This document shows positions 35,601 to 38,600 of a stretch of 64,000 nt of DNA, one piece after another. Source of the stretch: Escherichia coli (GTDB lineage Bacteria; Pseudomonadota; Gammaproteobacteria; Enterobacterales; Enterobacteriaceae); the NCBI RefSeq assembly GCF_044647545.1, contig NZ_CP172818.1; one strand, written 5' to 3'. The position numbers were made by a program. Numbering within the stretch: position 1 is the stretch's first letter; every line of letters begins with the position of its first letter.

Positions 35601-38600
35601 GGACATACTGATCTGATTACTACTCTTACTGGTGAATACAGGTAGTAAGAGTACACAATGCCATTATATAATACCTATCCAACATCTAAATTTGAGACGA
35701 AGGTAGCCCCAGCCTGTGATGGCTGTTAAAAAGTTACTCTGCAATTAGCTTCTGGAATTAACCGATGATTCCGTTATTCCAGTGCCGCTTCACAGTCGAT
35801 AAACTGATACTCAATTTCTTTGCAATCTCAGCCTGAGTAAATCCACCTTTCTTAAGTATTGTGATATCACGTCGGTATTTGCTTCCCTCCTTTCGTCCTA
35901 ATTTTTTCTTAACATGTCGATATCGGCTTTTAGTTGATTTCAGATTGTGAATGTCAATCGTATCCTGACGAGCAATCAAAAAAGACAAGCAACTTTCAGC
36001 AGAAGGCTCTATCCTTGAAGCTGGATGGTAGCTGTAGATAAACATTTCTTTTTGAAGGCAAAAAAATAAAATATTCTGTAAGTCCTCCACAGTTCTGCCA
36101 AGACAGCTTAGATCTGGAATGACAAGCGTGTCCTGCCGGTTCATTTCATGATGAATCAATTGTCTGAGTAAACGTTGCTCTGAAACAACCTCTTTAATAT
36201 CTACCTGCTCGATCACAACATGTTCAGGTAGAATATTAAATTTTTGGCATATCTCAGCAAGTGAGTGATGATCTGTAATGCTTTCTTGCTGTTCGCTACT
36301 GCATATGGTGTAAAAAAATGAACGCATCTGATGCACTCCGGTGTCATAAATTATTTTTTGATACCTGAATAATGTCATTTTGCATAAAAAACAACCAAAA
36401 ATAGAGAGTGATTGCCAGCGATACTTTAACTGGTAAAGTAGTATTTTACCTCTCATAATTGTTTGTCCTTCTTTGTTACCTCTTAGGTTCTGCTCTCTTG
36501 TGAGTATGGGTTTATAATGATGTCATCCGGTACATTAACACGGTTGGAAACATCTGTTTTGCGGAGCACTGGCAGCATAACCACCATTTCATTGACATGG
36601 TAAATATCAATCCAACAAACAACCGGATAAGGCATAACAATCCCCTTTCTTCTAAGAACTTCATTTATCCCGAATATAATCAATTGGGATGTTGACAAGA
36701 GTAGAGCCTGCCCGGCATCAAAGTAATAACCCTCAAAGGTTGTTCTATGAATAAGAATAATGTTTGAATATCCTGAGACACTTTGATGCTTTACATCAAA
36801 ATGTCTTTGATTGTAAATGTAAATGGCTTTTTCCATATCGTAATTTTCCCTTAGCGAGGATAGCCTTTCACGTATAACTGTTTTTTCATCTTTCCCCATG
36901 AATTCATCATTAGCGTTCAGTTGAAAGTAATCTGCAATGGGGATTTTTAATGGACTCATGATGTTCGTTTTCCAGATTAACGAACAGTACTCTTCCAGAG
37001 TTACTTCTGTTTTACCTCGGCTTCGATTGATGCTTTCTTTTATAGAGAACTTTAACAGGTCATTTTTTATTTCATTTATTGACCAGTTATGACGATTGCA
37101 TTTTTCTAATATAGGGATAGCCAAATCCACAACTTCCGCTATTACGGAAGAGTGAGATTTATTTGTTAGTCTGGCATAATGATCAATTACTCCTAATGAA
37201 GATTGATTTTTGAACGTGACTGAGTGTTTTTTTATGGGAGTAGTCTGTACTACCTGTGACTCATTGTTTTTGCCTTGACAAGGTTTTTTTCCTGGTAGAA
37301 CGCTGCTCATCTCAAAATTAGTAACACTATTAGACATTTTTAAGGAAACCTCTTTGTTATCTCAATATAAAACTACTATCTGAAATTTCTCAGTGTTGCC
37401 CCATTTTTCTCGGGGCAACATCGCTATAAATCAATAAAATTAAATCTGTAATTTATTACAGACTTTCTCGTACAGAAAATGTATCTATAAAATCGAGGAC
37501 ATCTTTACGTAACCAGTAATGGCGGCCATTGATTTGTTTTGGGCGAGGTAGCCCCTCAGGCAATTTGTCCTGACAAAGCCATTTACGAATGGTTTGAGAT
37601 TTGTAGCTAATGATTTTAGCTAACTCAGCTGTTGAAATGAGCTGTGATTGAGATGTATCCGGGAGTTTGAATGCGCTCATTTTGCCACCTCAGTGATTGA
37701 GATATTGGCAAAGAAAGCTTTAAGCATTATTGAATTAGTAGGGGTAGTAATGAAGGCAGAAGGAAACGTTTCGGGCTCGGGGTCGGGGTCACTACCATCA
37801 CCTGAATCTGATGATAAGGCACTTTTAGCTGATTTAGCCGTACTGTGATGCGATCTGGATGCCTGATTTTTACATGACATCAGACGCGCGAGAAAGTTAG
37901 TAGCATTTTGCATTCTTTGTTTAAGATGTAAAATTTTCAGTTTGGCGCATGCGACAGACTTGCGAAGAGCTGAGTATGTTCCTTTGAGATACTCGACAAC
38001 CTCTTCCATGGACGCAGGATCGTTAAAGGATTGAGTTGTTTTACTTGAATTAATACACCAGCGAGCTCTGATAGCTGCCAGAGTGGGTTCTATGGATACA
38101 GTTGCTGGGGTTGCCATTGGCTTATCTCCTGTGTAGTTGCTGTATCATTGACTAAACTGTGTATTACGATACATGAAAATCTATCTTGATCAATAGTTGA
38201 TGATATTTTGTAATATGTTGATTTTTAATGGAATCAACGCATATCAACGTTGTTTTTTATGGTAATACCTGCTTCATTTAAGATCCATGTCTCAATTTTC
38301 TCGTGCCATTTTCGTAACAGATCTAACGGACGACGGCGATAGTGTTTTTCGGCAAGAGCGCTGGGTTTGTGTCCCATAATTTGAGCAACAATACCAGTGG
38401 GAACTTCAACCCACTCGGCCAAAGTACCAAAACTACGACGTAAACCGTGAAGGCTGATATGTGGTAACTCAGCCAGCACTAATGCTCTGTTGTGCGCTGA
38501 ACGCGGCTCAATAATTTTGCCACTTTTACTGTTACTTCTGAAAACCCAACCCTCCTTATTTACGTCAGAATTTGGGGATTGCGCTAGTACATTTAACAAT

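What the first reader, a model, noticed from the sequence alone, without database searches (positions are those of the whole stretch)
37456..37680. Small AlpA/Xis-like ORF between yagM and yagN, translationally coupled to yagN
A 74 aa ORF with an HTH-like segment (ELAKIISYKSQTIRKW, followed by a basic W/R-rich tail) sits between yagM and yagN, and its stop overlaps the yagN start by 4 nt (ATGA). AlpA-family proteins often act as excisionases or activators of the adjacent integrase. This would be the island's candidate recombination directionality factor and is easy to miss because of its size.
Basis: partly seen in the sequence, partly recalled or inferred. Interest (0 to 1): 0.45.

Follow-up and report, generated by a model that had tools for sequence, protein, structure and literature searches.

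The report
ykgV: known excisionase-like gene of CP4-6
The small ORF is real, but it is the already annotated E. coli K-12 gene ykgV, a winged-helix DNA-binding protein next to the CP4-6 integrase that probably helps the island cut itself out of the chromosome, a role nobody has tested.

Summary
The 74-aa ORF at 37456-37680 (minus strand) exists as described. It is ykgV (b4729) of the E. coli K-12 cryptic element CP4-6. RefSeq annotates it, and its protein was detected by epitope tagging in 2018, when an HTH_17 match was also noted. The ATGA overlap is real, but the polarity is reversed: yagN is upstream, and its stop overlaps the ykgV start.

The order int, yagN-like, ykgV (with the Shine-Dalgarno and ATGA junction) is conserved in most of about 20 related islands and satellite-like elements. 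There ykgV sits where alpA sits in CP4-57, PICI and PICMI elements. It is the only excisionase-like ORF in an island known to excise.

Conserved repeat arrays lie on both att arms and upstream of yagN-ykgV. They are candidate binding sites.

Verdict: an ordinary, already known gene. The role as recombination directionality factor or excision activator is plausible (about 0.55) but untested. Low interest.

The parts
37456..37680 (-). ykgV (b4729) CDS, 74 aa. MerR-like/excisionase-type winged helix: b1 14-16, H1 17-24, H2 28-36, wing 48-57, H3 58-72.
37677..37680 (-). ATGA overlap. The yagN stop TGA (37679-37677) is nested in the ykgV start ATG (37680-37678).
   Evidence: Conserved in 7 loci.
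37686..37691 (-). Shine-Dalgarno GAGGTG for ykgV, inside the 3' end of yagN. Together with the ATGA it suggests translational coupling.
   Evidence: TGAGGTG(G/A)nnAAATGA is conserved in all 7 loci compared.
37677..38117 (-). yagN, 146 aa, upstream partner ORF with no known family. It evolves fast. Relatives share a central basic motif, a Ser/Asp/Pro acidic tract and the C-terminus EV(A/T)K.
38189..38248 (-). Cluster of 5 RTTGAY hexamers (both orientations) spanning the intF stop and the intF-yagN spacer. It is the densest such cluster in the 64-kb window. Candidate operator or promoter region of yagN-ykgV.
38234..39559 (-). intF, tyrosine integrase (Arm-DNA-bind_3 + Phage_integrase). The probable true start is ATG 39559 (441 aa, MALSRQK..., preceded by GGAG). 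The annotated start is 39634.
39594..39660 (-). Right-arm (int-proximal) composite: 10-bp-phased RTTGAY repeats (39620-39660) abutting the 26-bp element ATTTACTTACACCAGCAGTTACATTA (39594-39619). It lies just upstream of the intF SD.
39741..39810 (+). Right att core repeat (ptwF tRNA-Thr fragment).
5439..5508 (+). Left att core repeat (3' part of thrW, which spans 5415-5490, plus 18 nt).
5545..5589 (-). Left-arm composite: the 26-bp element (5545-5570) preceded by ATTGATCTTCGTTGAT (5574-5589).
37394..37420 (-). GC-rich hairpin (GTTGCCCC-N9-GGGGCAAC) about 35 nt downstream of the ykgV stop. No U-tract follows it.
   Evidence: dG -16.6 kcal/mol, z -4.2. Hairpins of unrelated sequence lie at the same place in L002, L006 and L014.
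34860..37337 (-). Downstream conserved module genes: yagM (36483-37337), yagL (35758-36456) and yagK (34860-35486, YagK_YfjJ_C, 44% identical to CP4-57 YfjJ).

Best explanation
YkgV is the excision-promoting small DNA-binding protein (recombination directionality factor, RDF) of the IntF recombination module of CP4-6. It is a functional and positional analogue of AlpA, Hef, Vis and TorI, but from a separate HTH_17 lineage.

Proposed mechanism (inferred). The gene order is intF, yagN, ykgV. ykgV is translated by coupling to yagN through the SD and ATGA junction. YkgV monomers bind head-to-tail, through helix H2 and the beta-wing, to short phased repeats in the att arms. The best candidates are the 10-bp-phased RTTGAY arrays. 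The alternative is the paired CTTACAC/GTTACAT half-sites of the 26-bp element. Binding would bend the DNA and help IntF assemble the excisive complex on attL and attR. Because one array lies against the intF promoter region and a related cluster lies upstream of yagN-ykgV, the same binding probably also modulates intF and autoregulates the yagN-ykgV operon. YagN may be a third component, as Iolg is in PICMI satellites.

Shown: the gene and its protein exist; the fold class; synteny with int; the conserved junction; the conserved arm repeats; CP4-6 excises.

Inferred: DNA binding, which repeats are bound, the effect on excision, and the regulation.

For: (2) Sequence profiles. HTH_17 is passed. 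PHROG_66 'excisionase and transcriptional regulator' matches at E 1.4e-6. The family profile hits RdfS at 1.8e-3 and an AlpA-family excisionase at 6e-3 in the PDB. TorI is the best single-sequence PDB hit (E 0.38), and TorI picks YkgV as its only hit in the window (E 0.0023).

(3) Synteny. The order int, yagN-like, ykgV is conserved in most related loci from Pantoea, Serratia, Citrobacter, Lelliottia, Winslowiella, Erwinia and Enterobacter. In relatives of 30-45% identity the gene sits between int and a primase/DUF3987 gene. That is the alpA slot of CP4-57 and of PICI, PICMI and cf-PICI-like elements.

(4) Precedent. In PICMI, int, the unknown small gene iolg and alpA are all required for excision. 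alpA in trans suffices and does not change transcription (PMC10803314). Hef, GIsul2 AlpA and SEN1998 act as, or bind like, RDFs.

(5) Need. CP4-6 excises at 1-27 per 1e5 cells (PMC3105296; PMC4632033). No excisionase has been assigned to it. YkgV is the only excisionase-like ORF in the whole window.

(6) Candidate sites. A composite of phased RTTGAY repeats plus a 26-bp element lies inside both ends of CP4-6. The int-proximal copy is conserved in about 15 related elements. RTTGAYN4RTTGAY occurs only twice in 64 kb (0.16 expected): once on the left arm and once at the intF-yagN junction.

(7) YkgV is basic, with pI 9.5 overall and 10.0 for the core.
Against: There is no experimental link between ykgV and excision.

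Sequence-level membership of the named AlpA family (PF05930) and of TIGR01764 fails. The HTH_17 match is only 0.8 bit above the cut-off.

The fold is shared with proteins that are not RDFs: MerR N-domains, BldC, RacA and terminase small subunits score nearly as well. No Foldseek match reaches E<1e-3.

The conserved repeats could all be IntF arm-type sites or -35-like promoter elements. I could not assign any motif to YkgV, because Int and YkgV co-occur in every locus.

In E. coli PICI EcCICFT073 the protein in this slot is a transcriptional activator that does not act on int (PMC6092414). Some island RDFs are dispensable for excision (SEN1998).
Confidence: 0.55

Rival explanations
1. YkgV is an AlpA-type transcriptional activator, the master regulator of the island's operon (yagN-ykgV itself and/or the downstream yagM-yagL-yagK or primase genes). 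It is not an architectural RDF. Any effect on excision would be indirect.
For: In E. coli PICI EcCICFT073 the protein in this slot activates its own operon and not int (PMC6092414). The same is described for EcCIMP1. In relatives, ykgV heads, or is translationally coupled into, the primase/DUF3987 operon. The densest RTTGAY cluster lies upstream of yagN-ykgV rather than at att. MerR-type activators share the fold. PGAP names it 'helix-turn-helix/AlpA family transcriptional regulator'.
Against: The best structural neighbours are excisionases. The repeats also lie on both att arms. CP4-6 excises yet carries no other Xis-like ORF. In PICMI the equivalent protein does not alter transcription. The two roles are not mutually exclusive.
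Confidence: 0.3
2. YkgV is a generic or decayed HTH protein with no present role in CP4-6 recombination, for example a relic regulator in a cryptic element. Spontaneous CP4-6 excision would then be RDF-independent or rely on a host or heterologous factor.
For: CP4-6 is a degraded, IS-ridden element. RDF deletion barely affects excision in ROD21. Excisionase cross-talk between elements is documented. Function is listed as unknown in the y-ome survey.
Against: Purifying selection, dN/dS 0.14. The SD/ATGA junction and the position next to int are strictly conserved across genera. The protein is made in K-12. The K-12 sequence is 80-85% identical to alleles in intact islands.
Confidence: 0.1
3. 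YkgV is an antiterminator-type AlpA, like Pseudomonas aeruginosa AlpA. It would let RNA polymerase read through the hairpin between ykgV and yagM.
For: A stable hairpin directly follows ykgV (dG -16.6, z -4.2). Hairpins of unrelated sequence lie at the same position in three relatives. The Pseudomonas AlpA mechanism is from my own knowledge and was not checked here.
Against: No U-tract follows the hairpin, so it is not called as an intrinsic terminator. The hairpin is absent where ykgV abuts or overlaps the next gene. There is no sequence similarity to PF05930 AlpA proteins.
Confidence: 0.05

Closest known systems
AlpA of E. coli CP4-57 (Pfam PF05930) and AlpA-slot proteins of Gram-negative PICI and PICMI satellites
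   Different: There is no detectable sequence similarity: BLASTP E 8.3, and no PF05930 hit in any of 27 homologues. In K-12 the primase gene next to it is replaced by yagM-yagL. ykgV is co-oriented and coupled with an upstream ORF (yagN), whereas CP4-57 has the oppositely oriented yfjH there.
TorI, the recombination directionality factor of E. coli KplE1/CPS-53 (PDB 1z4h)
   Different: The similarity is not statistically significant against the whole PDB (E 0.38-0.39). The cognate integrase family and the gene order differ.
RdfS excisionase of ICEMlSymR7A (PDB 8dgl) and BldC (6amk/6ama), MerR-like proteins that polymerise head-to-tail on direct repeats
   Different: Only 13-20% identity. BldC is a developmental regulator, not an RDF. 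No binding data exist for YkgV.
The int-iolg-alpA excision trio of PICMI satellites (PMC10803314)
   Same: An integrase, a fast-evolving small ORF of unknown function and an HTH protein lie in one direction, with an ATGA overlap in the series. A DUF3987 primase lies downstream in relatives.
   Different: In PICMI the ATGA overlap is between int and iolg. Here it is between yagN and ykgV, and int is separated from yagN by a 116-nt spacer. YagN shows no tested homology to Iolg families. No helper phage is known.

Membership tests
Pfam PF05930 Phage_AlpA (AlpA family in the strict sense) | Significant match to the PF05930 profile | tested here: not met
   No hit at E<=1 for YkgV or any of its 27 close homologues. 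Only 2 of 45 members of the broader alignment match.
Pfam PF05930 Phage_AlpA (AlpA family in the strict sense) | Sequence similarity to the founding member, E. coli CP4-57 AlpA | tested here: not met
   BLASTP E 8.3 over 3 residues. No alignment to a Serratia PF05930 protein. phmmer with AlpA finds nothing in the window.
Pfam PF05930 Phage_AlpA (AlpA family in the strict sense) | Position downstream of a P4-type integrase, ahead of DUF3987/YfjJ-type genes | tested here: met
Pfam PF12728 HTH_17 (MerR-like/excisionase-type HTH) | Score at or above the gathering threshold | tested here: met
   27.8 bits against 27.0, E 3e-6. 27 of 27 close and 37 of 45 broad homologues match. The margin is very small.
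TIGR01764 'excise' excisionase-family DNA-binding domain | Score at or above the NCBIfam cut-off | tested here: not met
   12.5 bits against a cut-off of 28.8, E 0.14.
Recombination directionality factors (functional class) | Small basic protein with the winged-helix excisionase fold | tested here: met
Recombination directionality factors (functional class) | Encoded with its cognate integrase on an excision-proficient element | tested here: met
   Adjacent to intF in all informative loci. CP4-6 excision has been measured.
Recombination directionality factors (functional class) | Binds specific sites in the att arms | not testable with these tools
   Only candidate sites were found: phased RTTGAY arrays and the 26-bp element on both arms. 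No protein could be assigned to them.
Recombination directionality factors (functional class) | Stimulates excision and/or inhibits integration by the cognate integrase | not testable with these tools
   No experiment found: only 7 papers mention ykgV, none of them functional.
PICI/PICMI-type phage satellites (int + alpA + primase core) | Co-localised int, AlpA-type (PF05930 or PF12728) and DUF3987/primase genes | tested here: inconclusive
   Met in relatives L011-L015, L024 and L026. L026 also carries capsid, protease and terS genes. In K-12 CP4-6 the adjacent primase is absent; only a DUF3987 pseudogene remnant lies about 4 kb away. No helper phage is known, and no homologue occurs in 50,697 phage records.

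The most novel reading that the evidence does not exclude
The YkgV family would be a distinct, non-PF05930 lineage of 'AlpA-slot' excision switches. It would be shared by CP4-6-type tRNA islands and by PICMI- and cf-PICI-like phage satellites. It would work as a three-protein excision machine with IntF and the co-translated, fast-evolving YagN. It would bind 10-bp-phased RTTGAY arrays on both att arms and at its own promoter. CP4-6 would then be a decayed phage satellite whose excision is triggered by an unknown helper phage rather than a decayed prophage.
Probability: 0.2. Interest if true: 0.45.

Novelty: already known. Interest (0 to 1): 0.2.

Why it matters
CP4-6 is one of the more actively excising cryptic elements of E. 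coli K-12, yet it has no assigned excisionase. The published deletion strain had to be built by recombineering rather than by Xis overproduction. Showing that YkgV drives IntF-dependent excision would have three modest uses. It would fill a gap in the K-12 y-ome. It would give a simple tool to cure CP4-6. It would show that the label 'AlpA' covers at least two sequence-unrelated lineages occupying one functional slot in tRNA islands and phage satellites. None of this would surprise a specialist, because the inference from fold and position is routine.

Tried and rejected
- **AlpA by sequence.** I tested PF05930 membership and pairwise similarity to AlpA. Both were negative. I therefore do not file YkgV as an AlpA-family member, only as a positional and fold analogue.
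- **TIGR01764 'excise'.** Below cut-off.
- **A second excisionase in CP4-6.** I searched all six-frame ORFs of the window with a family HMM and with AlpA and TorI. Only ykgV matched. The one weak hit (13147-14295) is an IS30-type transposase.
- **Phage origin.** No homologue in 50,697 phage records. The plasmid hits are F-primes carrying K-12 DNA.
- **Promoter and terminator scans.** Counts around the locus equal the shuffled expectation, so they are uninformative.
- **ncRNA.** Rfam finds only the ptwF tRNA-like sequence.
- **Which repeat does YkgV bind?** I compared distant relatives to separate RTTGAY arrays from paired CTTACA half-sites. Both motifs and both proteins co-occur even in elements where YkgV is about 30% identical. 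The question stays unresolved.
- **Error of mine.** The IntF identity values printed are invalid, because the query was translated one base out of frame. The correct values (70-95%) come. The locations remain valid.
- **Failed call.** One literature query failed for a term that was too short.
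Full report
**What is there**

The window is the E. coli K-12 thrW/CP4-6 region. A 451-bp query around the finding is 100% identical to hundreds of K-12-derived genomes, and 327 of 5,426 complete E. coli genomes carry it. The ORF at 37456..37680 is on the minus strand, starts with ATG and encodes 74 aa. RefSeq annotates it as ykgV (WP_001272156.1). [quoted passage not shown]

VanOrsdel et al. 2018 chose this sORF, tagged it on the chromosome, detected the protein and noted a match to HTH_17 (PMC6001520). Later surveys list ykgV (b4729) among uncharacterised CP4-6 genes. Only seven papers in the library contain the name, and none reports a function. So the object is real, but it is neither overlooked nor new.

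**Checking the observation**

The gene order on the minus strand is:

- intF (annotated to 39634; see the correction below)
- yagN (38117..37677)
- ykgV (37680..37456)
- a 118-nt spacer
- yagM, yagL, yagK

The ATGA at 37680-37677 is real. A GAGGTG Shine-Dalgarno lies 5 nt upstream of the ATG, inside yagN. The whole junction, TGAGGTG(G/A)nnAAATGA, is conserved in seven loci, including relatives only 41-45% identical. This supports translational coupling with yagN upstream.

ykgV is under purifying selection. Against Pantoea, dN/dS is 0.14. Against Serratia, pN is 0.25 and pS is 0.76, which is saturated.

**Family**

| Test | Result |
|---|---|
| Pfam HTH_17 (PF12728) | 27.8 bits, cut-off 27.0, E 3e-6 |
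| Pfam Phage_AlpA (PF05930) | no hit at E<=1 |
| 27 close homologues (60-97% identity; Salmonella, Citrobacter, Erwinia, Pantoea, Serratia, Enterobacter, Pectobacterium) | all hit HTH_17, none hits PF05930 |
| BLASTP against K-12 AlpA | E 8.3 |
| BLASTP against a Serratia PF05930 protein | no alignment |
| TIGR01764 'excise' | 12.5 bits, cut-off 28.8 |
| PHROG_66 'excisionase and transcriptional regulator' | E 1.4e-6 |

An exhaustive profile search of 1.84 billion cluster representatives finds only 69 clusters at E<=1e-3, so the family is narrow. The wider alignment shows a motif QT(I/L)RKW...P..INGR..W.

**Structure**

The profile of the wider alignment hits these PDB entries:

- BldC, E 1.3e-6
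- CarA-N, E 1e-4
- RdfS excisionase, E 1.8e-3
- an AlpA-family excisionase, E 6e-3

TorI is the best single-sequence PDB match, aligned over the wing, but at E 0.38 it is not significant.

The AlphaFold model has pLDDT 81.8. It is a strand, two helices, a beta-hairpin wing and a C-terminal helix. The quoted 'HTH segment' corresponds to H1-H2, and the 'basic tail' is the wing.

The fold class is therefore the MerR-like 'excisionase' winged helix. That is compatible with an RDF but not specific to one.

**Context**

In Pantoea and Serratia the order is:

- int (435-441 aa)
- a yagN-like ORF (149-152 aa)
- ykgV, with the 4-nt overlap
- a yagM-like gene, then (in Pantoea) a yagL-like gene, then a yagK-like gene
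- variable cargo that looks like defence genes

Seven more species-representative genomes were found through a conserved 26-bp DNA element. Six show int at the same position; the seventh contig ends before int. Five of the six also show ykgV downstream of int, and three of these the yagN-like ORF as well; in the Enterobacter sp. locus only int was detected.

In relatives of 41-45% identity, ykgV is still preceded by int and by a small ORF. The small ORF overlaps ykgV by 4 nt wherever it was called (L013, L014, L015/L016). In L011/L012 it was not called, but the conserved junction is present. In these relatives ykgV is followed by a DUF3987 (YfjI-type) gene and a YagK/YfjJ gene.

That is the arrangement of CP4-57: intA, alpA, yfjI, yfjJ. 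YagK and YfjJ are 44% identical.

At about 30% identity, the gene sits between int and a Toprim/DUF927 or Zn-ribbon-primase plus DUF3987 gene. In one 9-kb contig the element also carries small-terminase, prohead-protease and HK97-capsid genes, like a capsid-forming PICI.

YkgV thus occupies the 'alpA slot' of tRNA islands and phage satellites. No homologue occurs in 50,697 phage genomes.

**What proteins in that slot do**

Published work gives two models.

- *Direct RDF.* In PICMI satellites, int, the small unknown gene iolg and alpA are all needed for excision. alpA in trans is sufficient, and it does not change transcription (PMC10803314). Hef and GIsul2 AlpA behave as excisionases. SEN1998 binds both att regions.
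- *Transcriptional activator.* In E. coli PICI EcCICFT073, AlpA activates its own operon and not int. Its overexpression nevertheless induces excision and replication (PMC6092414).

**Why an RDF is expected here**

CP4-6 excises spontaneously at 1-27 per 1e5 cells (PMC3105296) and at 0.3-1.5 per 1e5 cells (PMC4632033). No excisionase is assigned to it. Wang et al. removed CP4-57 and CPS-53 by overproducing AlpA and TorI, but had to delete CP4-6 by recombineering.

Searching all six-frame ORFs of the window with the family HMM, AlpA and TorI finds only ykgV. The single weak extra hit is an IS30-type transposase.

**Candidate cis elements (new here, unassigned)**

- *att core.* It is the 70-nt repeat at 5439-5508 and 39741-39810.
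- *26-bp element.* Inside each end of the element lies ATTTACTTACACCAGCnGTTACATTA, at 5545-5570 and 39594-39619. These are the only two matches in the window, even allowing 3 mismatches. It contains CTTACAC and GTTACAT 11 bp apart.
- *RTTGAY repeats.* They directly precede the 26-bp element at 10-bp phase.
- *Conservation.* About 15 related elements have, in order: a tRNA 3' fragment (Thr-type or Arg(UCU)-type), about 115 nt of AT-rich DNA, three phased RTTGAY repeats, 9 nt, the 26-bp element, an SD and the int ATG. The same logic holds in elements where YkgV is only about 30% identical.
- *Rarity.* RTTGAYN4RTTGAY occurs only twice in 64 kb, against 0.16 expected. One copy is on the left arm. 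The other spans the intF stop, at 38233-38248.
- *Cluster upstream of yagN.* The densest RTTGAY cluster in the window is at 38189-38248, upstream of yagN-ykgV. It is conserved in relatives.

These arrays look like binding sites for an island-encoded protein acting both at the att arms and at the yagN-ykgV promoter. I could not decide whether YkgV or the IntF arm-binding domain binds which motif. Some copies may simply be -35-like hexamers.

**Conclusion**

YkgV is an excisionase-type winged-helix protein in conserved synteny with the integrase, and it is the only candidate RDF of an excising island. It is not an AlpA-family member by sequence, and its function is untested.

I put 0.55 on a direct RDF role, probably with autoregulation. 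I put 0.30 on a purely transcriptional AlpA-like activator role. The remainder goes to no current role or to antitermination.

The gene, its protein and its HTH domain are already published and annotated, and the functional inference is routine. The finding is therefore of low interest.

Noticed in passing
window 39559-39634 (minus strand): The annotated intF start (39634, 466 aa) is probably wrong. All homologues start at MA(L/S)xRQK..., giving 432-441 aa, and a GGAG lies 7 nt upstream of ATG 39559. The annotated N-terminal extension would run through the conserved 26-bp arm element.
   Followed up: partly
window 5545-5589 and 39594-39660; L002, L006, L011, L014, L017-L024, L026 upstream of int: A conserved att-arm composite: three 10-bp-phased RTTGAY repeats plus a 26-bp element holding two CTTACA-type half-sites 11 bp apart. 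It is kept across islands that target tRNA-Thr or tRNA-Arg(UCU), and in distant satellite-like elements. In contig L026 a CTTACA pair lies on both sides of the tRNA fragment, like an intact attP.
   Followed up: partly
window 38189-38248: The densest RTTGAY cluster of the 64-kb window spans the intF stop codon and the intF-yagN spacer. GTTGATnnnnGTTGAT plus an inverted copy is conserved there in relatives. It is a possible operator or promoter of yagN-ykgV.
   Followed up: partly
window 37394-37420 (minus strand); L002 8237-8272, L006 8247-8270, L014 2262-2294 (approximate): A stable hairpin without a U-tract follows ykgV (dG -16.6, z -4.2). Relatives have hairpins of unrelated sequence at the same place. 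It is absent where ykgV abuts the next gene. Its function is unknown: operon end, RNA stabiliser or palindromic operator.
   Followed up: partly
window 37677-38117 (yagN); L002 7546-8004, L006 7555-8004, L013 1262-1636, L014 1649-2023, L015 441-899, L011 about 6630-7004 (uncalled ORF): YagN-like ORFs diverge very fast and match no family. They keep a basic K-N-x-x-S-R-S/T-H motif, a Ser/Asp/Pro-rich acidic tract, a hydrophobic C-terminal stretch in several relatives, and a C-terminus EV(A/T)K that is constrained by the ykgV SD. They are reminiscent of the unknown 'iolg' genes needed for PICMI excision.
   Followed up: partly
L002-L009 downstream of the yagK-like gene; L011-L012 10372-14234: The cargo next to the conserved int-yagN-ykgV-yagM-yagK module differs between strains and looks like anti-phage defence. 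Examples are a 1939-aa Trypsin_2/AAA_16 protein, SLFN_AlbA_2 + SMC_N/AAA_23 + ResIII/RE_endonuc genes, and SMC_N/AAA_15.
   Followed up: no
L026 (9.2-kb contig): A remote YkgV relative sits in a compact element with int, primase + DUF3987, Terminase_4, Peptidase_S78 and Phage_capsid genes. This is a capsid-forming PICI-like satellite.
   Followed up: no
L006-L009 4500-7432: In Serratia a second, different integrase (404 aa, with Phage_int_M) lies divergently next to the IntF-like integrase. In L007 it has its own PF05930 AlpA. This suggests tandem islands at one tRNA site.
   Followed up: no
window about 32967-33170 (L001 1668-1871): A DUF3987 (YfjI-type) pseudogene fragment lies next to IS1 inside CP4-6, on the strand opposite to the intF module. 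It hints that CP4-6 is a composite or has lost its primase gene.
   Followed up: no
window 39716-39789 (+): Rfam scores ptwF as a full-length tRNA (45.5 bits, model positions 1-71), although ARAGORN does not call it.
   Followed up: no
hit H30, NZ_CP010171.1 (E. coli strain H7): The match to the K-12 sequence ends about 25 nt inside the 3' end of ykgV (query 1-182, 100% identity). This suggests a recombination breakpoint or a divergent ykgV/yagN/int allele joined to the same yagM.
   Followed up: no
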